A DNA stretch of 39,863 bases, from IMG/VR virus record IMGVR_UViG_2563366928_000005, positions 1 through 39,863 of that record, one strand, 5' to 3'. Positions within the stretch are counted from its first letter, which is position 1. Every line of letters begins with the position of its first letter. This DNA comes from a virus (Duplodnaviria > Heunggongvirae > Uroviricota > Caudoviricetes). The position numbers and the translations under genes are program-made. Below are positions 1,422-22,939 of the stretch, in pieces. Under the pieces are notes generated by a model. That model had not been told where the DNA came from. It saw nothing but the letters and a program-made list of their open reading frames with translations, and did not search any database.

Positions 1422-2114
1422 TTAAAAATCAGCCTGACTCGGGATCAGTTTTTGCCAGATAACTGAAACGTATTTTGCCTGGTAACGGGCGTCATCAAGT
1501 GCATTATGGCGCTCACCTTCGAATGGAATAGCCGTTCTGGCATCGAAGTCTATGGCTTTCCCCAGCTCAACGATTGTGCGTACATCGCGATCGTTGTAGT
1601 AACGCCACGGGCAGGGGATCCCCTGCCGTTCGTATGAACGGCGCAAAATCGTGTTGTCGAAGTTGGCTCCATTTCCCCAAACCTGAACAAAAAATTCACC
1701 GGAGTTTTCGTCGATAAATTCCCGCAATTGTAACAGTGCATCATCTAACGGGATTTCATCGGTCATAATGGCAGATTGCGCTTCGCGTGATTGCTTAAGC
1801 CACCATTTAATGGTGTCCCGATCAATGACTCCGCCAGCAGTTTCCAGATCGATAGTCTTACTAAATTCCGGTCCCATATCTCCGGTTTGCGGATCGAAAA
1901 ATATTGCACCTATTGAGATGATCGGGGCATCAGGATTTTTTCCCATGGTTTCAAGGTCGATCATTAGATGGTCACACGTCCTGCTGGTGGATGTGATTTC
2001 GTGATGACCGTTCACCTTAATTGAGCGATCTGCCGTCTCGCCAGTTTCATTATCGCTATCGTGATGCTGATTGCCGCCAGTGTTCTCCTTGTGTGGATGT
2101 TCAGCGCCTTCCAT
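1422..2114 (-). CDS. DEDDh-type 3'-5' exonuclease (DnaQ-like fold)
   Basis: Exo I motif MIDLETMG and C-terminal H-x4-D motif [10 protein letters not shown] in the translation. Start uncertain: ATG at 2114 has a GGAGG RBS but overlaps the upstream gene by about 100 nt; alternative ATG at 1964. Confidence 0.7.
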
Positions 2115-3808
2115 TTCCTCCGGATCATCTTCCTGAACTTCAACCTGATACTCTTCATCGAATGTTTCCTGGTATGTTGCGCCACTGGTTCAGGCTGTTT
2201 CGTTCCTGGCTCGTTTTGTAACGCATTTGGGCTGTTTTGTTCCGCTTTTTGGTAGTTCCGTTCCGATTCATGCTGGTTCTGGTTCACAGAATCGCGGGTC
2301 TGGATCCCCTTAACCCATTTCGGATCATTCGGGTCACTAATCCCTTCAACAAATTCACCACGTGATGCAGCAAGCAACTTATCGGCGTCAGGCTGGCTGA
2401 TATTGGCTGCCTGCATAATTTTGTTTACTTCGTCAGCGGTAACTTTTATCGGCTCTGGTTGTTCTGAATCTTCAGCGGTATCTACATTTTGCGGTAAGCC
2501 CGTGTATGTGCCATTTTTTCGGGCAAAATATTCTTCTTTTGTGATTTCAGTGGCGCCAGCAGCCAGTGCCTTATCCAGACCAGAAAGTTTGTTTGCGCGA
2601 CCGCATTTTTCTCCGTCCTTATCTGCGAAGAGGAAATAGAACGGCCCCTCACGCTCTACAGATGGTTCAGCTTCCGGCGCGGTTTCATTTTTTGGGATAT
2701 CAGATACCTCAGTTTCCACTGCATCAGTTTGTGTTTCTGATGACTGGAGAACATCAACAGTGCCCAGGTCTGTTTCTTCATTCTCAAACACGCCCTTTGT
2801 CGTCAGGTATTCGCAGATATATTTGTTCAGTGCTATGGGATCTTTGTGAATGTCGATCGGACGCTCACGGACAAGGCCAAAAATAGTTTGGCGGTCGTAG
2901 CGAAGGGCATCAGGCTGTTTGCGCATTGATGCCGAGATACGCTTCCAGTCTTCGCGGTCGTTGTCGATAACTTCATTTTTTGCCCAGCGATGGATGCTGC
3001 CGTCAATGTTTCCGGCATCCACATCACCAGGCCAGAGAGCGTAGGCCAGTTCGTCATCCAGTGTTTTCCATGTCTGCTTGTATTCGCGATGAATGGCAGC
3101 AATGACCGGGCTGATTTTTCCTGTTGAATTTTCAGTGTACTGTTGATTGGCTCTGGCGCGGGCGAGATCAACAACAGACGTGTATTTTCCGGTTTCCTTG
3201 CGTTCACCTTCGCGACGTTTTTTCCAGATGCGCATCTCTGCCTGAATTTCGGGCCATTTAGCACCAGGAATACATTTATGCTTAACCCACCCAATGGCGT
3301 GCAACTTAAGCTCCGGATACATGGCGTTAACTTCTGGCATTTTCATCAACGCTTCAACGATATGTCCGTCGAATGTTGCCATGTCTTCCTGCAACAATTC
3401 CTGTGCGCTAATAACCATATCAACGGTGATGTTTTCACATGTGTCGAACTTAACCATGACAGCGTTCTGTACTTCAGGGGCCAGCTTGTCAAAAGTGACG
3501 TTCATCGGATCGGATTCAGTCTCAACCGGGACAAAGGAAGCAGACTCCTCATCCCAGCGGTTTTCCTGCATATATTCAGCATCCCAGGAATCGAGGGCAG
3601 GGCGGGGTATGCCGGGTTTATCCTCACAGACAATAAATTTATAAGCGCAGTCCTGAGCTGCAGGGAATTGCTCCAGAAATTGCCAATGAAATTTTGCGCG
3701 TGCGCGACGCTCATCACCAGCTTCAATGGCAGTGGCCACCGCAACAGCGCTATCTTCTTTTATGGCCTGTTCATCAGGAATAGCAGCGCAAATAAAGACC
3801 TTACTCAT
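2012..3808 (-). CDS. Large acidic early-region protein, unknown function
   Basis: 598-aa uninterrupted ORF in the early-left operon; no motif I recognise; low-complexity C-terminal tail overlaps the exonuclease ORF. Confidence 0.5.
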
Positions 3809-3903
3809 TTTGTTTTAACCTCATTACAGATTTCAGGGTGAACGAATCCCTGCCATTGCTGGCATTTTTAATCCGTTGGTATGGTGTTAATATGGCTGGA
3901 GGG

Positions 3904-4092
3904 TTATCCAGCCGGTGTTTCGTTATTCAGGTACAGCGATACTTTTTTTAGCGGGAGGCATTCACCAGAAATTTTTTGCTCGTCTCTTGCCTGGAGGCAG
4001 GATTCTTTACTTGCATAAATTCCGGTAATCACATTCTGTGATTCACCCGTTATAAGAAAAACCGTCATCATCAGTGCAAATGCTGAAGTCAT
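3904..4092 (-). CDS. Small protein with hydrophobic N-terminus (kil-position gene)
   Basis: 62 aa; N-terminal hydrophobic stretch FALMMTVFLIT then polar tail with two Cys; position corresponds to kil genes of lambda/Rac. Confidence 0.3.
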   Translation of the reverse strand: MTSAFALMMTVFLITGESQNVITGIYASKESCLQARDEQKISGECLPLKKVSLYLNNETPAG

Positions 4093-4277
4093 TAACGTTC
4101 TCCGAAAATACCAAGTTCAAGAAGAGCAATTCGGGAAAGTATGGAATTATCATTGAGCAGATAAGGCTCATATTTCCTCATATTAATGGCATCTTCAGTA
4201 AACTCCCGGTTACTGAGCAGAACACCAATATCAAAACAACCTTCAGACGTATTAACGTTTGGTAATAACGTTTCCAT
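4092..4277 (-). CDS. Small hypothetical protein
   Basis: 61-aa ORF whose stop abuts the start of the next small ORF (coupling at 4092). Confidence 0.3.
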   Translation of the reverse strand: METLLPNVNTSEGCFDIGVLLSNREFTEDAINMRKYEPYLLNDNSILSRIALLELGIFGER

Positions 4278-4848
4278 TATCGCGTCCTCAACAATGAATT
4301 TTGTGATGCAGTGCCTGGTGCCTCCAGGTGACGTTAACCAGTTAACAATTAACGCCGGGTTAGTTGATGCTCGTTACGCCCGTAAAATACCGCCTTACTG
4401 CTTTAACTGTTCCGCGTGCGCATAGCCGCATTCACCGCATCACAAAATTCACTTTAAAAAGGGCGGCAGAGCAGTCACGGAGTAAAACTGATACCGCCAA
4501 ATGTCACCAGAAAATTGATAACAGAGGGCGTTGTAGCGGGGTTGTCACTTAAGCGTATGGTCAACCTGACAACCCGGTGCATTTTCTGGAGCAATGGAGG
4601 AAACCCCAGCCATACTTACCGCCGCGCCATTTCGCGGAGTGCCACAACCGGAAGCGCACGGTCGAACTAAATTTAACGACACCGTACAGAGAGACCAATT
4701 TCGCCGTGCGCTTTCGCGTTATGCCCTGACTTTTCAGGGACATATCCTTTCAGTAAGCTGTCAGTGCCGGATGCTCACCCGTGTCCGGCGCACGCACTCC
4801 ACCTGACCCGTGGAGAACTCCTTAATTACCAACCCTCAGGAGGGTGAA

Positions 4849-5127
4849 ATGGATAAAAAGCAAATTGAGGCCCTGCAATCTATTATTGAAGAACAAGATG
4901 AAGCTATCAGGATTCTTTCATATCGCACTGATATGATACTAAATATGCTTTCTGCATTAACGGCTGCGCTTGGTGGTACAAAAACAAACGTATACCGCGA
5001 AGTTGTTATTCAACAGATAGATAAATTTGAAAAAACCATACCAGGTATTAATGCTCATCTTGCAGAACAAGAGAAAGACCATGCTCTTATGGCAATTTCT
5101 TCAGTAGCTCTCCCGAAAGTTGAGTAG
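4849..5127 (+). CDS. Hypothetical protein (AT-rich island, convergent with minus-strand operon)
   Basis: ATG at 4849 preceded by AGGAGGG RBS; 92 aa predicted helical; AT-rich codon usage; 3' end overlaps the convergent minus-strand ORF by 41 bp. Confidence 0.45.
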   Translation: MDKKQIEALQSIIEEQDEAIRILSYRTDMILNMLSALTAALGGTKTNVYREVVIQQIDKFEKTIPGINAHLAEQEKDHALMAISSVALPKVE

Positions 5128-5500
5128 TTTTAATTGTTGTTTTGAAATAATCACTGCTTTCACATTTGAGTGATTTCATGGCAATCCAAATGCGGGCCTC
5201 TGTGCCTGCATTTGGTTCCAGTTGCTGTAGACGTTTTGCGTCTTCCAAAAGTAAGGCGATAATGTGTTTCAGCTTCTCATCATTTGCTTGATTCTTGTTT
5301 TCAGGCGAATTCTGTCCGCCGAATAGGCGCTTCTCTTCATACAGACCTATAAAGGCACGACGCACGTTACCGGATATAGTATCGATGGTTTCCTTTTCTA
5401 CGGTACTCAGGTCAAGAGTCGCCAGTTGAGAGCGAACCACATTCGATGCCATTTCCTGGAATGGTACTGGTAAATCTTTAAATTCCATCGTCAACCTCAT
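5087..5500 (-). CDS. Hypothetical protein (second gene of repressor-linked operon)
   Basis: ATG at 5500 overlaps the upstream stop (ATGA); a second ATG at 5488 has a GAGG RBS; about 133-137 aa, no recognised motif. Confidence 0.45.
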   Translation of the reverse strand: MRLTMEFKDLPVPFQEMASNVVRSQLATLDLSTVEKETIDTISGNVRRAFIGLYEEKRLFGGQNSPENKNQANDEKLKHIIALLLEDAKRLQQLEPNAGTEARIWIAMKSLKCESSDYFKTTIKTTQLSGELLKKLP

Positions 5501-5733
5501 CAGTCAGTGTTTCTGGTTAACCAGCGACGCGCGCCAGCTTCAGTTTTAAACGTTTTGCTTCTGGTATACGTCATCGCGGTGAACGTACCGTCCTGGTTGG
5601 GGAACACGCCACATACCAGAGATTCGCTGTTGCCAAGATCGATAGTATCCATGCTGACCTCATTTCCCCTTAACGCCGGGGTAGCGGAACAAAAACCTGC
5701 TGCATAGTTATTAAAGTTGAACCCTGCCGTCAT
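5500..5733 (-). CDS. Hypothetical protein (first gene downstream of repressor)
   Basis: 77-aa ORF following operator-like palindromes at 5838..5875; no Arg-rich motif. Confidence 0.4.
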   Translation of the reverse strand: MTAGFNFNNYAAGFCSATPALRGNEVSMDTIDLGNSESLVCGVFPNQDGTFTAMTYTRSKTFKTEAGARRWLTRNTD

Positions 5734-5837
5734 GTTCTTACGCCTCGGGCTGGCTACTTAACCCCTGACCACTGCCTGGTAACTCGAAGTATTGCCCTGC
5801 ATTCTGTGGGGCGGGGTGGGTTGGTATGAAAAGAAGG

Positions 5838-5875
5838 ATACCCATAGGTATTTAAAAAGTAAATACCCATGGGTA
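5838..5875. promoter_or_regulatory. Operator-like palindromes (candidate leftward early promoter/operator)
   Basis: ATACCCATAGGTAT (5838..5851) and perfect palindrome TACCCATGGGTA (5864..5875); share the ACC..TGGGTA core with sites in the repressor/cro intergenic region. Confidence 0.5.
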
Positions 5876-5917
5876 AATGTTTGCGGTGTCTTAACTGGTG
5901 ACTAGTTGTTTGGTGAG

Positions 5918-6337
5918 CTATGATGCGTTTTGTGCTTTCTTTTTACGGATTTCTTCGTAGATCATATTGTAATACTGTTTTTTCTCTTCAAGAGTTTTTA
6001 ATAATTTATCCGCTTCACTTTCTGGCAGTTCGTCTAAGAGATCTAAAAAAATACGTTGTCGTGGCGTTAGAACCCTTGTTTCATAACTGGAGGCTGTGTT
6101 CGTTGATGATGAAACGATACCATCCATCCATCCCCGGGGTAACCCAAAGGACTCTTCGATAATCTCCACCATATCATCAGCGATCCGTTTTTTTCCCTTT
6201 TTCCCCTCTGGGTACAACATTCTTGATACATAAGAAGGCTCGCGCCCGATCTTTCTGGCCACGTTAACCGCTTTACCATCGCATTTCTCATCACGAATTT
6301 TGATGAGTTGCTGTCGTCTAAATTCATATTTGTCCAT
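5918..6337 (-). CDS. Prophage repressor, XRE/CI-type helix-turn-helix
   Basis: 139 aa; HTH segment KAVNVARKIGREPSYVSRML; divergent from a Cro-like gene across an operator-bearing intergenic region. Confidence 0.7.
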   Translation of the reverse strand: MDKYEFRRQQLIKIRDEKCDGKAVNVARKIGREPSYVSRMLYPEGKKGKKRIADDMVEIIEESFGLPRGWMDGIVSSSTNTASSYETRVLTPRQRIFLDLLDELPESEADKLLKTLEEKKQYYNMIYEEIRKKKAQNAS

Positions 6338-6374
6338 AGGTAAATAATAGATGCGATTACCGCAAGGTAAACAA

Positions 6375-6410
6375 CCTGTGGGTATTGACTTTTGTTTACC
6401 TGTGGGTATT
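6375..6410. promoter_or_regulatory. Operator repeats in the repressor/cro divergent promoter region
   Basis: Two direct copies of ACCTGTGGGTATT (6375..6387, 6398..6410); candidate -35 TTGACT at 6384..6389 reading toward the cro-like gene. Confidence 0.55.
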
Positions 6411-20749: not shown

Positions 20750-21217
20750 ATGAACCGCGTACTGTGCGTGGTCATCATTGCCCTGCTGGTGGCCTGTGGT
20801 GCGCTTAGTCTGGGGCTGAATCATTACCGTGATAACGCCATTACCTACAAAGCCCAGCGCGACAAAAATGTCAGAGAACTGAAGCTGGCGAACGCGGCAA
20901 TTACTGACATGCAGATGCGTCAGCGTGATGTTGCTGCGCTCGATGCAAAATACACGAAGGAGTTAGCTGATGCGAAAGCTGAAAATGAAACTCTTCGCGC
21001 TGACGTTGCCGCTGGTCGTAAGCGCCTGCGTATCAACGCCACCTGTCCAGGTCCCGTGCGTGAAGCCACCGGCACCGCCCGCGTGGATAATGCAACCGGC
21101 CCCCAACTGGCAGACACCGTTACACGGGATTATTTCACCCTCAGAGAGCGGCTGATGACGATGCAGAAGCAACTGGAAGGGGCGCAGGAATATATCCGTA
21201 CTCAGTGCCTGAAATAA
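20750..21217 (+). CDS. Rz: i-spanin Rz
   Basis: 155 aa; DNA and protein closely match lambda Rz as I recall it ([17 protein letters not shown]...). Confidence 0.9.
20970..21155 (+). CDS. Rz1: o-spanin Rz1 (embedded in Rz, +1 frame)
   Basis: 61 aa, lipoprotein signal with lipobox LVVSAC and Pro-rich mature region, fully nested in Rz. Confidence 0.8.
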
Positions 21218-21567
21218 GTTTTGTTGATGCGCCGTATCGTCGCTGTATTCCCTCATTAACAGAGACCGCAGCCCGACAGGGAGACTCCTCTGCGCGAGTG
21301 TGCGGGGATAATCAAAAACGATACACACCGGGGTTTACCGCGTTAACGGAGCGCGGCGTTGTCCCCTCATAGTCGCCTGTCCGGTGCGATGGTGGAAGAA
21401 ACCGGATGTTTATCACTATTAATTGATGACACAGAAATGGATTCATTGAATTTCAGCACGTTTTTGTATTCGTGTTATTGAACATCTGTTTATTTTACTT
21501 TTAACATATTGATAATAAAAAGAGCTGTAAATCTTTAGATGAGTCGATTTTGTCCGGGGAAGTTCAA

Positions 21568-21708
21568 ATGGATTTTATGCTGACGGTTTCTGGTGTGGTT
21601 ATCCTGTCCATTGCTTATACTGCAGATAAATATGGCTGCCATTTGTTATCACGTATTGGCGCTTATTGTTCGTTGATGCTGATTTTCTCGTCGCTTTTTT
21701 TTGAGTAA
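21568..21708 (+). CDS. Possible small hydrophobic peptide
   Basis: 46-aa ORF found by hand (MDFMLTVSGVVILSIAYTADKYGCHLLSRIGAYCSLMLIFSSLFFE) in an AT-rich region; weak RBS. Confidence 0.2.
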   Translation: MDFMLTVSGVVILSIAYTADKYGCHLLSRIGAYCSLMLIFSSLFFE

Positions 21709-21840
21709 GTTATATTAATTATAACAAATAATTTTCTGTGTTATTTTTTCAGGCTATCCCGTCAGAGGGGAAGCCTGTACTGCCGGGGAGCGAATGGAAA
21801 ACTGATGTGTCCGGTAACTGCGTGTTCTGTGAACACCATG

Positions 21841-22026
21841 TTACTTAATTATGTAATTCATACCCGAACTCTCTGTTGACAGCCTTCTTCTGCAGGCTTC
21901 AATAACCCACGCTGAAAAATTTCCTGAACCTTTCAGATCAAGAGCGATGTTAATTTGTTCAATCATCTGGTTTGGAAATCGGATGTTGCGGGTTGTTGTT
22001 CTGCGGGTTCTGTTCTTTGATGACAT
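21841..22026 (-). CDS. Possible ribbon-helix-helix DNA-binding protein
   Basis: 61 aa; basic N-terminus then strand-helix-helix pattern (IRFP, MIEQINIALD, FSAWVIEACRRRL). Confidence 0.4.
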   Translation of the reverse strand: MSSKNRTRRTTTRNIRFPNQMIEQINIALDLKGSGNFSAWVIEACRRRLSTESSGMNYIIK

Positions 22027-22233
22027 AATGTTTCCCCATATTCAGTGTTGCTGATTTGTATTATCTGAAGTTGCTTTTACGTTAATTTGATGCAGATCAA
22101 TTAATACGATACCTGCGTCATAATTGATTATTTCTCGTGGTTTGATGGCGTACACACATGTTGTGATAAACCTTATATAGATGATAATCATTATCATTTT
22201 CGTGGGTCCTTTCCGGCGATCCGACCGGTTACG

Positions 22234-22245
22234 GGGCGGCGACCT
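22234..22245. other. cos site (cosN cohesive-end sequence), lambda type
   Basis: GGGCGGCGACCT followed by CGCGGATTTTCACTATTTATGAAAATTTTCCGG, nearly identical to the lambda left end as I recall it; about 190 bp upstream of the Nu1-like gene. Confidence 0.85.
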
Positions 22246-22429
22246 CGCGGATTTTCACTATTTATGAAAATTTTCCGGGAACCATGTCCGGTTTCTCTTC
22301 AAGTTAACTATATGAAAAATAAAAAAAGAGGTCTTCTGTGAACCGGACATGCACAAAAAATAGACACTAAAACCGGACATGACCGGTTTTGTTGTGATTG
22401 TGAGGTGAGAGTTTTTTGCGAGGTGAGGA

Positions 22430-22939
22430 GTGGCTACGCAGACTGAAGTTGCCAGGCATTTAAGTCTGACCGATCGCCAGCTTCGCAGATTGCAGAAATT
22501 GCCGGGTGCCCCGATATCGAATAAGCGAGGGCAACTGGATCTGGATGCCTGGCGCGATTTTTACATATCGTATCTGAGAAGAAGTAAAAACGATGTGCCT
22601 GATGGCGATAGCGAAGACGACTATGAGGAGAAATTGCTTATTGCCAGATGGGAACTGACAGCAGAACAGGCTGTTACACAGCAGTTAAAAAATGAGGTGT
22701 CAAAAGGAAAACTTATTGACACCGGGTTCTGTATTTTTGCCCTCAGCAAGCTGGCAATGGCGTTATCCAGTACGCTTGATTCCATCCCTTTATCCATGCA
22801 GCGACAGTTTCCTGATTTAACACCGCGCCATCTTGACCATCTGAAAACCCTTATTGCAAAGGGCGCAAATCAGTGTGCGCGGGCGGGGGATAAATTACCG
22901 GATTTACTCGATGAATATATCAGAGCAACAACTGAATAA
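22430..22939 (+). CDS. nu1: Terminase small subunit, Nu1-like
   Basis: GTG start after AGGTGAGGAG; C-terminal half parallels lambda Nu1; overlaps the large subunit start as in lambda. Confidence 0.8.
   Translation: MATQTEVARHLSLTDRQLRRLQKLPGAPISNKRGQLDLDAWRDFYISYLRRSKNDVPDGDSEDDYEEKLLIARWELTAEQAVTQQLKNEVSKGKLIDTGFCIFALSKLAMALSSTLDSIPLSMQRQFPDLTPRHLDHLKTLIAKGANQCARAGDKLPDLLDEYIRATTE

What the first reader, a model, noticed from the sequence alone, without database searches (positions are those of the whole stretch)
4849..5733. AT-rich island beside the repressor: two coupled unknown genes plus a convergent 3'-overlapping gene (sieB/rex position)
Downstream of the repressor on the minus strand are a 77-aa ORF (5500..5733) and a roughly 133-aa ORF (5087..5488/5500). 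Stop and start overlap (ATGA at 5498..5502) and a GAGG RBS precedes the ATG at 5488, so they look translationally coupled. A third ORF (4849..5127, plus strand, AGGAGG RBS) converges on them and overlaps the 3' end by 41 bp. The block is visibly AT-rich compared with the flanking phage genes, which suggests acquired cargo. None of the three proteins has a motif I recognise. Lambda and Rac carry superinfection-exclusion genes (rexAB, sieB) at this position, so this is the best candidate for an undescribed exclusion or defence module.
Basis: partly seen in the sequence, partly recalled or inferred. Interest (0 to 1): 0.62.

Follow-up and report, generated by a model that had tools for sequence, protein, structure and literature searches.

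The report
Swappable small gene at prophage sieB slot
The region is the start of the early-left (dicBF) operon of an E. coli Qin/Rac-type prophage: an ordinary YdfA-family gene, a mosaic early gene, and a real but uncharacterised 92-aa gene facing them in the same place and orientation as the exclusion gene sieB in lambda and Rac, at a slot where related prophages carry at least 11 alternative small genes.

Summary
The ORFs are real, but they are not one module and not in the rex position. Repressor operators and a terminator-like hairpin (5839-5875) separate the repressor gene from these genes, which open the PL/dicBF operon: ydfA -> 133-aa gene -> DicF -> dicB.

- **The 77-aa ORF** is an over-extended YdfA/YdaF (DUF1391) gene. 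The true CDS is 5500-5652 (50 aa).
- **The 133-aa gene (5087-5488)** is a mosaic. Its N-module is widespread in E. coli. Its C-module carries a near-invariant ~33-aa motif found across Enterobacterales and in an Aeromonas phage.
- **The 92-aa plus-strand gene (4849-5127)** is under purifying selection (dN/dS 0.08-0.25). It is predicted to be a soluble, acidic three-helix protein, with no family, fold or defence-database match.
- **Its position** matches sieB in lambda and Rac: convergent on the first PL gene(s). It starts from a conserved leader with a weak promoter, two hairpins and an anti-SD/SD pairing.
- **The slot is polymorphic.** In 46 of 116 related IMG/VR loci the same leader drives one of 11 unrelated small genes.

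The low-GC cargo is only 4849-5329. A defence or exclusion role is plausible from position but untested. The two cassette genes also occur apart.

The parts
5918..6337 (-). Prophage repressor gene (139 aa). Context, not part of the cassette.
   Evidence: phrog_5736 'transcriptional regulator', E 6e-70. Weak DicA C-terminal match. Flanked by operator repeats.
5839..5875 (.). OL: two operator palindromes (TACCCATAGGTA / TACCCATGGGTA). Together they also form a terminator-like hairpin followed by a T-run, which would end the repressor transcript.
   Evidence: TACCCAYRGGT gives 6 matches, all at 5839-5875 and 6374-6408, against 1.46 expected; 0 of 100 shuffles reach 6. Terminator-like site on the minus strand at 5875->5839.
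5835..5863 (-). Putative PL promoter (-35 TTTACT 5863-5858, 17-nt spacer, -10 TATCCT 5840-5835), overlapped by the operators.
   Evidence: Read from the sequence. At 8/12 it is below the scan threshold. Inference only.
5653..5733 (-).
   Evidence: No third-position bias (4/5/7 variable sites), and the frame is broken in 14 of 24 distinct homologues. PGAP starts the gene at 5652.
5500..5652 (-). ydfA/ydaF-family gene (DUF1391, 50 aa), the first gene of the PL/dicBF operon.
   Evidence: Pfam PF07151, 93.4 bits against a cut-off of 27.3. 88% identical to K-12 YdfA and 84% to YdaF. Third-position bias 6/9/22.
5495..5498 (-). GAGG Shine-Dalgarno of the 133-aa gene, 6 nt before ATG 5488 and directly after the ydfA stop codon (5500-5502).
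   Evidence: Sequence.
5087..5488 (-). 133-aa mosaic early gene (WP_001339605). It comprises an N-module (residues 1-54, 5327-5488), a predicted-disordered linker, and a C-module.
   Evidence: PGAP CDS. phrog_1363, with separate PHROG hits for the two halves. Recombination joints at about 5329/5338 and 5488-5520. The C-module exists as a stand-alone 66-71-aa gene in E. coli and Salmonella. AF2 pLDDT 52, with residues 49-70 and 113-133 below 50.
5177..5275 (-). Near-invariant core motif (residues 72-104, LKHIIALLLEDAKRLQQLEPNAGTEARIWIA...).
   Evidence: 15 invariant and 11 nearly invariant columns in 35 sequences. 416 clusters across Escherichia, Salmonella, Cronobacter, Serratia, Citrobacter and Sodalis. 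Also in Cronobacter phage phiES15 gp010 and Aeromonas phage pAEv1818 gp20. dN/dS 0.09-0.34 where dS is computable.
4849..5127 (+). 92-aa gene (WP_000358769), convergent on the PL operon. Predicted to be a soluble, acidic three-helix protein.
   Evidence: PGAP CDS. dN/dS 0.08-0.25 against Salmonella-type homologues. 22 clusters among 5.8e9 proteins and 15 representatives among 1.84e9. AF2 helices 3-41, 46-63 and 69-85, pLDDT 71. pI 5.1 and no TM segment. No Pfam, NCBIfam, PADLOC or PDB match.
5087..5127 (.). 41-bp dual-coding 3' overlap of the two convergent genes.
   Evidence: Same 41-bp overlap in L004, L010 and L015. dS is lower here (0.34-0.50) than in the non-overlapping part (0.75-1.02).
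4731..4759 (+). Putative promoter of the 92-aa gene: -35 TTTTCA 4731-4736, 17-nt spacer, -10 TAAGCT 4754-4759 (TAAACT in most related loci).
   Evidence: Read from the sequence. A -10-like box lies a few nt before hairpin 1 in loci whose upstream DNA is otherwise unrelated (L015 TGTTATTAT, L010 TAAAAT, L016 GATAAT, L008 TATTAA). Not found by the consensus scan. Inference.
4766..4843 (+). Conserved leader ('platform') of the plus-strand gene: hairpin 1 at 4766-4789, hairpin 2 at 4797-4815, anti-SD CTCCT at 4818-4822 pairing with SD AGGAG(G) at 4838-4843.
   Evidence: The hairpin-1 pattern retrieved 120 IMG/VR loci. RNAalifold gives hairpin 1 plus an anti-SD:SD helix with one compensatory pair (AU 14 / UA 9). 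Hairpin 2 keeps its stem with three different sequences. Plus-strand RNA folds at z -2.41, minus-strand at -0.96. No Rfam family.
4461..4512 (-). DicF sRNA, downstream in the same PL operon. Context.
   Evidence: Rfam RF00039, 77 bits against a gathering score of 48.
4092..4277 (-). dicB, a cell-division inhibitor. It is the one gene of this operon with a published phage-protection effect. Context.
   Evidence: Pfam DicB, 122.9 bits. PGAP annotation. PMC6832061 for the phenotype.

Best explanation
The window is a Qin/Rac-type (PPompW-type) lambdoid prophage of E. coli integrated next to ompW. The finding covers the promoter-proximal end of its early-left (PL, 'dicBF') operon plus one separately transcribed gene that faces it.

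**Shown**
- Repressor-bound operators lie at 5839-5875 and precede, on the minus strand, ydfA (50 aa, DUF1391), the 133-aa gene, the DicF precursor, dicB, ydfD, exonuclease, xis and int.
- The 133-aa gene is a recombinational mosaic. It joins a common N-module to a C-module with a near-invariant ~33-aa motif.
- The 92-aa plus-strand gene is a genuine, selected protein gene.
- That gene sits in the same position and orientation as sieB in lambda and Rac.
- The slot is polymorphic. Behind one conserved leader, related prophages carry any of at least 11 unrelated small genes (57-101 aa) or none. Each abuts or overlaps the 3' end of a matching minus-strand gene.

**Inferred**
- The 92-aa gene has its own weak sigma-70 promoter, and its mRNA begins with a 5' stabilising hairpin.
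- Its ribosome-binding site can be masked by an upstream anti-SD.
- It is therefore made in the lysogen while PL is repressed, like sieB and other morons.
- On induction, PL transcription runs antisense through it and should shut it down.

**Most likely role**
It is probably a small prophage accessory protein that acts by binding another protein in phage-phage or phage-host conflict (an exclusion-type function). It would not act through a SieB-like membrane mechanism. The 133-aa protein and YdfA are early lytic proteins of unknown host-directed function.
For: **Genome context**
- 100% identity to E. coli chromosomes next to ompW, with annotated int, xis, exonuclease, DUF1482, dicB, DUF1391 and YdaS/YdaT-like genes.
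- DicF, 77 bits; DicB and DUF1391 Pfam hits.
- Operators only around the repressor gene; terminator-like hairpin after the repressor gene.

**Mosaic structure**
- Homology with Qin stops at 4834 and resumes at 5521. Homology with PPompW_EH2246 covers 4848..3801 and 5488..5338.
- Qin ydfB/ydfC are unrelated to the proteins here.
- The N-module is joined to many other C-termini.
- The core motif is near-invariant across genera.

**The 92-aa gene is real**
- dN/dS 0.08-0.25, PGAP CDS, strong SD.

**sieB equivalence**
- Rac, lambda.

**Polymorphic slot**
- 46 of 116 IMG/VR loci carry a plus-strand ORF of at least 40 aa at the platform, in 11 families, with 3' overlaps of 0-71 nt in most.

**Leader**
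-.

**Composition**
- Low GC for 4849-5329.

**Published precedent**
- SieB is prophage-expressed (PMC10883804).
Against: - There are no expression data. The proposed promoter is weak in this window (TAAGCT; 7/12 to consensus) and was not picked up by the scan.
- No terminator was found for the plus-strand gene.
- The leader is also kept in Qin-type loci that have no plus-strand gene. Its conservation could therefore serve the minus-strand DicF precursor instead.
- The anti-SD covariation rests on one pair that separates two lineages.
- No homology, fold or defence-database support exists for any function.
- The protein has no membrane segment, unlike SieB.
- Co-variation of the plus-strand cargo with the minus-strand C-termini can be explained by physical linkage alone.
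Confidence: 0.6

Rival explanations
1. The three ORFs form one acquired superinfection-exclusion or defence module that works as a unit beside the repressor, as rexAB does.
For: - Low GC for part of the block.
- Immunity-region location.
- No known function for two of the proteins.
- Products of the same operon can protect against phage (DicB; PMC6832061).
Against: - ydfA is a conserved core gene of Qin/Rac PL operons with normal GC.
- The genes lie beyond OL/PL, not in the repressor operon.
- The 133-aa type occurs with a different plus-strand gene or none.
- The 92-aa type occurs with other partners or none.
- The whole cassette is in 124 of 5426 complete genomes, while its parts are far commoner.
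- No PADLOC match.
Confidence: 0.07
2. A cognate effector/antidote pair, on the Sie/Esc or toxin-antitoxin logic. The lysogen-expressed 92-aa protein blocks phage development or is harmful. The variable C-terminal part of the PL-encoded 133-aa protein, made early after induction, neutralises it so that the prophage escapes its own block.
For: - Each plus-strand cargo family comes with its own minus-strand C-terminal variant, joined at overlapping 3' ends.
- The 41-bp overlap and the partner's C-terminal tail (…LSxELLKK…) travel with the 92-aa gene even into a P2-like context.
- P22 SieB spares P22 itself (PMC10883804).
- The escape factor Esc and the antisense RNA at sieB are recalled from my own knowledge of Ranade & Poteete 1993, not checked here.
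Against: - Physical linkage between conserved flanks explains the co-variation without any interaction.
- The core motif pairs with at least three different plus-strand cargos: the 92-aa gene, a 57-aa gene and a GhoS-like 94-aa gene.
- The 92-aa gene exists without this partner (L008).
- No interaction test was possible.
Confidence: 0.12
3. The plus-strand unit is mainly a cis-acting regulator. Convergent transcription and antisense RNA from the conserved leader damp leaky PL transcription towards the toxic dicF and dicB in the lysogen. The encoded proteins are secondary passengers or lysis-lysogeny regulators.
For: - The leader, with its -10-like box and hairpins, is kept even where no plus-strand gene follows (Qin type, about 45 loci).
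- dicF and dicB are toxic when expressed (PMC5069750).
- The plus-strand RNA is better structured than shuffled controls.
Against: - The 92-aa reading frame is under clear purifying selection and has a strong SD.
- Eleven different intact cargo families argue for protein functions.
- The leader may be conserved for processing of the minus-strand DicF precursor.
Confidence: 0.15
4. The 92-aa ORF is a chance open frame antisense to the PL transcript and is not a gene.
For: - Very narrow family.
- No match in 50,697 phage records.
- No domain hit.
Against: - dN/dS 0.08-0.25 with dS 0.67-1.02 over the non-overlapping part.
- Length, start and C-terminus are kept at 40-45% identity.
- AGGAGG SD.
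- By contrast, the 41-aa antisense ORF inside it is what chance gives: 65% of synonymous permutations produce one at least as long.
Confidence: 0.03

Closest known systems
sieB of lambda, Rac and P22 (Pfam PF14163), a prophage-expressed abortive-type superinfection exclusion gene
   Same: Same place and orientation. It is a separately transcribed gene on the strand opposite PL, converging on the first PL gene(s) with abutting or overlapping 3' ends (lambda N/sieB; Rac ydaF/sieB). It is present in some relatives and absent in others.
   Different: No sequence similarity: no Pfam SieB hit, whereas Rac and lambda SieB score 109 and 103 bits. It is half the size (92 against 162-184 aa). It is acidic and soluble, whereas Rac SieB is basic with a clearly membrane-like hydrophobic segment. 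It has a different leader. No phenotype is known.
Qin dicBF operon, ydfA-ydfB-ydfC-dicF-dicB-ydfD (E. coli K-12)
   Same: Same operon frame: repressor, operators, ydfA (88% identical), DicF, dicB, ydfD. The ydfC-dicF leader is 87% identical.
   Different: The ydfB-ydfC segment is replaced by the 133-aa gene plus the convergent 92-aa gene. The repressor type differs.
Phage morons and prophage hotspots of accessory or defence genes (for example HK97 gp15, and the P2/P4 hotspots of Rousset et al. 2022, PMC9122126)
   Same: Low-GC, presence/absence-polymorphic cargo between conserved flanks in a prophage, probably expressed from the prophage.
   Different: The cargo here is single small ORFan proteins (57-101 aa) behind a shared leader. 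They face the early lytic operon and overlap its genes. None matches a known defence family.
Cronobacter phage phiES15 gp010 and Aeromonas phage pAEv1818 gp20 (hypothetical proteins)
   Same: They share the near-invariant core motif of the 133-aa protein's C-module and lie as the first gene after a DicA-like repressor. pAEv1818 also has a convergent, overlapping 93-aa gene.
   Different: They lack the N-module and have other C-terminal tails. The convergent gene of pAEv1818 is unrelated to the 92-aa protein.

Membership tests
SieB (PF14163) | Sequence membership in the SieB family | tested here: not met
   The 92-aa protein has no Pfam family at E <= 0.1. Rac and lambda SieB score 109.4 and 103.5 bits. 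phmmer against lambda and Rac SieB gives 0 bits or less.
SieB (PF14163) | Membrane protein of about 160-190 aa | tested here: not met
   92 aa, with a maximum 19-residue hydropathy of 0.93, against 2.19 for Rac SieB. AF2 gives three amphipathic helices.
SieB (PF14163) | Gene on the strand opposite PL, converging on the first PL gene(s) | tested here: met
   Window 4849-5127 (+) against 5087-5488 (-). Same layout in lambda and Rac.
SieB (PF14163) | Expressed from the prophage, and aborts the lytic growth of superinfecting relatives | not testable with these tools
   Needs RNA or protein data from a lysogen and phage challenge. The published behaviour of P22 SieB is in PMC10883804.
RexAB-type exclusion (lambda) | Genes co-transcribed with the repressor, lying between cI and OL | tested here: not met
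   Operators and a terminator-like hairpin (5839-5875) lie between the repressor gene and these ORFs. In lambda, rexAB lie on the cI side of OL.
RexAB-type exclusion (lambda) | Homology to RexA or RexB | tested here: not met
   No Pfam, PADLOC or NCBIfam hit. phmmer against RexB gives 3.2 bits. RexA was not compared pairwise.
YdfA/YdaF (DUF1391, PF07151) | Pfam model above the gathering score | tested here: met
   93.4 bits against 27.3, residues 29-75 of the 77-aa ORF. 88% and 84% identity to K-12 YdfA and YdaF.
YdfA/YdaF (DUF1391, PF07151) | A gene of about 50 aa in the promoter-proximal part of the PL operon of Qin/Rac-type prophages (first gene in Qin, second after ydaG in Rac) | tested here: met
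   The N-terminal extension is shown to be non-coding.
Lambdoid N-type antiterminator | Homology to N or an arginine-rich N-terminus, as the first PL gene | tested here: not met
   hmmsearch and phmmer against lambda N give -1.8 and -1.4 bits. The 133-aa protein is near-neutral (pI 6.6) and YdfA has pI 6.1.
Type II toxin-antitoxin pair | Two co-directional, co-transcribed small genes that always occur together, at least one in a known TA family | tested here: not met
   The genes are convergent. They occur apart. The only hit is a sub-threshold RelB-like match of 15.6 bits against a cut-off of 50.
Known anti-phage defence systems (PADLOC-DB 2.0) | Match to any defence-protein model | tested here: not met
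   No hit for the 92-aa or the 77-aa protein. The 133-aa protein gives only an 11-bit HerA chance match. The alternative cargo genes of the slot are also negative.
Moron (independently expressed accessory gene inserted in a phage genome) | Present in some close relatives and absent in others, with deviant base composition | tested here: met
   Absent from Qin. The cassette is in 124 of 5426 complete genomes. GC is 0.373 for the gene against 0.523 for the window.
Moron (independently expressed accessory gene inserted in a phage genome) | Own promoter and terminator | tested here: inconclusive
   A -10-like box lies at a conserved distance before hairpin 1 in unrelated upstream contexts. It is weak in this window and was not found by the scan. 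No terminator was found.

The most novel reading that the evidence does not exclude
Qin/Rac/PPompW-type prophages carry a conserved antisense 'expression platform' opposite PL, made of a promoter, a 5' hairpin and an anti-SD switch. This platform drives a polymorphic set of small ORFan proteins, of which the 92-aa protein is one. These would be exclusion or abortive-infection effectors made in the lysogen. Each would be matched by a variable C-terminal domain on the overlapping PL-encoded early protein, which acts as a cognate escape factor when the prophage itself is induced. That would make the slot a family of Sie/Esc-like effector-antidote pairs diversifying by cassette exchange.
Probability: 0.12. 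Interest if true: 0.75.

Novelty: new member of a known kind. Interest (0 to 1): 0.4.

Why it matters
If the 92-aa protein and its alternative slot-mates are prophage-expressed conflict proteins, this slot would be a compact, easily recognised hotspot for finding new small exclusion or host-modulating proteins. It would also offer a natural system for studying how convergent transcription from PL switches such genes off at induction. The near-invariant 33-aa motif of the early protein, kept from Escherichia to an Aeromonas phage, points to a conserved and still unknown host or phage target. As it stands, the finding mainly corrects the gene map of a common E. coli prophage region. It shows that the 'module' is three unrelated pieces.

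Tried and rejected
**Searches that found nothing**
- Profile searches of the 92-aa and 133-aa proteins against Pfam, NCBIfam and PADLOC gave nothing significant. PHROGs gave only unknown-function families.
- PDB sequence profiles gave one weak LemA match (E 0.013) for the core motif and none for the 92-aa family.
- Foldseek of the 92-aa model against PDB and BFVD gave nothing better than E 0.6.
- The afdb50 library was not available.
- The 133-aa model was too poor (pLDDT 52) to justify a fold search.
- tblastn of the 92-aa protein against 50,697 phage records found no match.
- Comparison with lambda N, Ral, SieB, CIII, Kil, Ea10, Gam, RexB and the Rac/Qin small proteins gave no similarity.
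- Pfam on ten other minus-strand partner proteins of the slot gave only HTH domains in two that are repressor-like.

**Ideas rejected**
- K-12 YdfB/YdfC as split homologues of the 133-aa protein: unrelated.
- A 41-aa hydrophobic ORF antisense inside the 92-aa gene as a type I toxin: 65% of synonymous-codon permutations give an ORF at least as long.
- The 77-aa form of ydfA: rejected on codon-position and indel evidence.

**Could not be done**
- I looked for published K-12 transcription-start data for the leader, but the paper I wanted is not held.
- The literature on ydfABC, DUF1391 and PPompW gives no function for these genes.
Full report
**What the window is.** Bases 4300-6400 are 100% identical to several E. 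coli chromosomes. In strain AR_0013 the region lies next to ompW inside an annotated prophage. Its genes, in order, are integrase, excisionase, exonuclease, DUF1482, dicB, three hypothetical genes, a DUF1391 gene, a YdaS-like regulator, a YdaT-like protein and replication genes. Rfam finds DicF at 4461-4512 on the minus strand (77 bits against a gathering score of 48). Pfam finds DicB at 4092-4277 and DUF1482 at 3904-4092. This is therefore a Qin/Rac-type ('PPompW'-type) lambdoid prophage, and the finding lies in its immunity region.

**Where the finding sits relative to the repressor.**
- The repressor gene is 5918-6337 (phrog_5736).
- The motif TACCCAYRGGT occurs six times in 39.9 kb, all at 5839-5875 and 6374-6408. 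The chance expectation is 1.46, and 0 of 100 shuffles reach six. These are OL and OR.
- The two OL palindromes also form a terminator-like hairpin with a T-run directly after the repressor gene.
- The three ORFs are therefore not in the repressor operon, which is the rex position in lambda. They lie beyond OL, at the start of the early-left operon. That operon continues through DicF, dicB, ydfD, exonuclease, xis and int, as in the K-12 Qin dicBF operon (PMC5069750).

**The 77-aa ORF.**
- Pfam DUF1391 matches residues 29-75 (93.4 bits).
- K-12 YdfA and YdaF are 51 aa and are 88% and 84% identical to residues 28-76. PGAP annotates 50 aa.
- In 24 distinct homologous sequences, the first 27 codons show no third-position bias (4/5/7 variable sites) and are broken in 14. 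Codons 28-77 vary 6/9/22.
- The gene is therefore 5500-5652. Bases 5653-5733 are PL leader. This is an ordinary, widely conserved early gene of unknown function, with normal GC (0.503).

**The 133-aa gene.**
- ATG 5488 is preceded by GAGG at 5495-5498. The upstream ATG at 5500 shares one base with the ydfA stop codon (TGATG) but has no SD. PGAP and most database entries use the 133-aa form.
- The protein is a mosaic.
  - *N-module (residues 1-54):* found in many E. coli prophages fused to quite different C-termini of 50-160 residues. The N-module DNA was covered in 24 of 40 evenly spaced rows sampled from the 1,461 matching records, which suggests several hundred complete genomes carry it. The whole cassette 4835-5520 is in only 124 of 5426.
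  - *C-module (residues about 66-133):* exists as a stand-alone 66-71-aa gene in E. coli and Salmonella.
  - *Core motif:* the first ~33 residues of the C-module (LKHIIALLLEDAKRLQQLEPNAGTEARIWIA) are almost invariant in 416 clusters, from Escherichia, Salmonella, Cronobacter, Serratia, Citrobacter and Sodalis. They also occur in Cronobacter phage phiES15 gp010 and Aeromonas phage pAEv1818 gp20, where the gene is the first one after a DicA-like repressor. The tails after the motif are hypervariable.
- dN/dS for this part is 0.09-0.34 where dS is computable.
- No family, solved structure or defence model matches. The AF2 model is poor: pLDDT 52, four helices, with a disordered linker and tail.

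**The 92-aa gene.**
- It has an AGGAGG SD 5 nt before the ATG and is annotated by PGAP.
- Against Salmonella-type homologues (71-73% identity) its non-overlapping part has dN/dS 0.08-0.23 with dS 0.75-1.02. It is a real gene.
- The family is very small: 22 clusters in 5.8 billion proteins and 15 representatives in 1.84 billion. These include 40-45%-identical proteins of 90-92 aa. None is found in 50,697 phage records.
- AF2 predicts three helices (pLDDT 71). The protein is acidic (pI 5.1) and has no membrane segment.
- Foldseek against PDB and BFVD gives only generic helical matches (E > 0.6).

**Position and orientation equal sieB.**
- In Rac, sieB is on the strand opposite ydaF and overlaps its 3' end by 4 bp.
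- In lambda, sieB is on the strand opposite N and abuts its 3' end.
- It is not a SieB protein. Rac and lambda SieB hit PF14163 at 109 and 103 bits, whereas the 92-aa protein hits nothing. It is also half the size and soluble.

**A polymorphic slot behind a shared leader.**
- Homology with Qin ends at 4834 and resumes at 5521. Homology with PPompW_EH2246 ends exactly at 4848, the base before the ATG. There, an unrelated 77-aa gene starts at the same place.
- The ~85 nt before the ATG contain two hairpins (4766-4789 and 4797-4815) and a CTCCT box complementary to the SD.
- Of the 116 loci with enough downstream DNA, 46 carry a plus-strand ORF of at least 40 aa starting at this platform. These fall into 11 unrelated families of 57-101 aa. 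Most abut or overlap the 3' end of the minus-strand gene by 0-71 nt.
- About 45 loci are Qin-type, with ydfC-ydfB-ydfA and no plus-strand gene.
- The 92-aa family makes up 4 of the 116 loci. A 91-aa family may be a distant relative (hhalign E 3e-4, probability 39%).
- None of the cargo proteins has a Pfam or PADLOC match, except a borderline GhoS hit for a 94-aa family (21.2 bits against a cut-off of 21). That family also occupies the equivalent place in Aeromonas phage pAEv1818.

**Evidence that the leader works on the plus strand.**
- *RNA structure:* RNAalifold on 23 distinct leaders recovers hairpin 1 and an anti-SD:SD helix with one compensatory pair (AU in 14, UA in 9). Hairpin 2 keeps a stem with three different sequences.
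- *Folding energy:* the plus-strand RNA folds better than shuffled controls (z -2.41), while the minus-strand RNA does not (z -0.96).
- *Promoter:* a -10-like hexamer lies a few nt before hairpin 1 in loci whose upstream DNA is otherwise unrelated (L015, L010, L008, L016-type). This would put hairpin 1 at the very 5' end of the mRNA.
- *Weaknesses:*
  - In this window the box is weak (TAAGCT; -35 TTTTCA).
  - The consensus scan found no promoter or terminator for this gene.
  - The leader is also kept in Qin-type loci, where it is part of the DicF precursor.
  - Independent expression is therefore an inference.

**Are the two cassette genes a functional pair?**
- *For pairing:* the 41-bp overlap and the partner's C-terminal tail travel with the 92-aa gene. 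This holds even in a P2-like Cox/C context, where the partner is a 214-aa HTH protein.
- *Against pairing:*
  - The 133-aa type occurs with a different 57-aa plus-strand gene, which is interrupted in L014.
  - The core motif pairs with at least three cargo families.
  - In Salmonella locus L008 the 92-aa gene has a changed C-terminus and no such partner.
  - Linkage between conserved flanks is enough to explain the co-variation.
- A Sie/Esc-like effector-antidote relation is not excluded, but it has no direct support.

**Composition.** The segment 4849-5329 has GC 0.391, in the lowest 1% of 481-nt windows (mean 0.522, sd 0.052). The 92-aa gene alone is 0.373. The repressor, cro and dicB genes are similarly low, so the 'island' is the cassette and not the whole 885 bp.

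**Verdict.** It is wrong about the rex position and about a three-gene module. Function remains unknown. The best-supported reading is that the 92-aa gene is a prophage-expressed accessory protein at a hypervariable, sieB-equivalent slot. The other two genes are early lytic genes. The operon already contains one gene with a published phage-protection effect, dicB (PMC6832061), about 600 bp to the left.

Noticed in passing
window 4797-4815; loci L017/L040 versus L048/L073: Hairpin 2 of the leader occurs in variants that are exact reverse complements of each other (ACCACACG-TGACAG-CGTGTTGGT versus ACAACACG-CTGTCA-CGTGTGGT). It looks as if the small palindromic segment had been flipped, for example by template switching at a quasi-palindrome.
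   Followed up: partly
window 1422-3808: The exonuclease gene is split into two overlapping ORFs (1422-2114 and 2012-3808). Relative to AR_0013, the window lacks 85 nt flanked by a 7-nt repeat (junction about 2175-2181). This shifts the frame of the 823-aa gene that PGAP annotates there.
   Followed up: partly
window 4245-4463 (-): A sub-threshold Rfam match to the Salmonella sRNA STnc100 (31 bits against a gathering score of 47, E 3e-4) covers the DicF-dicB spacer. It is probably the same prophage leader region under another name.
   Followed up: no
window 21300-22400: This is the second very low-GC stretch of the window, between the spanin gene (20750-21217) and a likely small-terminase gene (22430-22939). 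It holds a 61-aa minus-strand ORF (21841-22026) that looks like a small DNA-binding protein. It may be another cargo slot.
   Followed up: no
window 4957-5082 (-): A 41-aa hydrophobic ORF lies antisense inside the 92-aa gene and stays open in all homologues. 65% of synonymous-codon permutations of the 92-aa gene give an ORF at least as long, so it is a by-product of the sense gene's composition.
   Followed up: yes
L012 (Aeromonas phage pAEv1818) 3495-4022; IMG/VR loci L058, L089, L092: A 93-94-aa family with a borderline GhoS (type V antitoxin endoribonuclease) Pfam hit occupies the same convergent slot. It sits opposite a core-motif gene in both E. coli prophages and an Aeromonas phage.
   Followed up: partly
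L003 (Rac) 5060-5172 and L136 (lambda) 1890-1983: Rac and lambda sieB share their own conserved upstream leader, with a repeated ACCCCTACAG box. It differs from the leader found here, which suggests each cargo type at this slot can bring its own expression signals.
   Followed up: no
L015 (Logan SRR5508307 contig) 1-2157: A 45%-identical homologue of the 92-aa gene, with the same leader and the same 41-bp overlap, sits beside a P2-like Cox/C/integrase region. The cassette therefore moves between lambdoid and P2-like immunity regions.
   Followed up: partly
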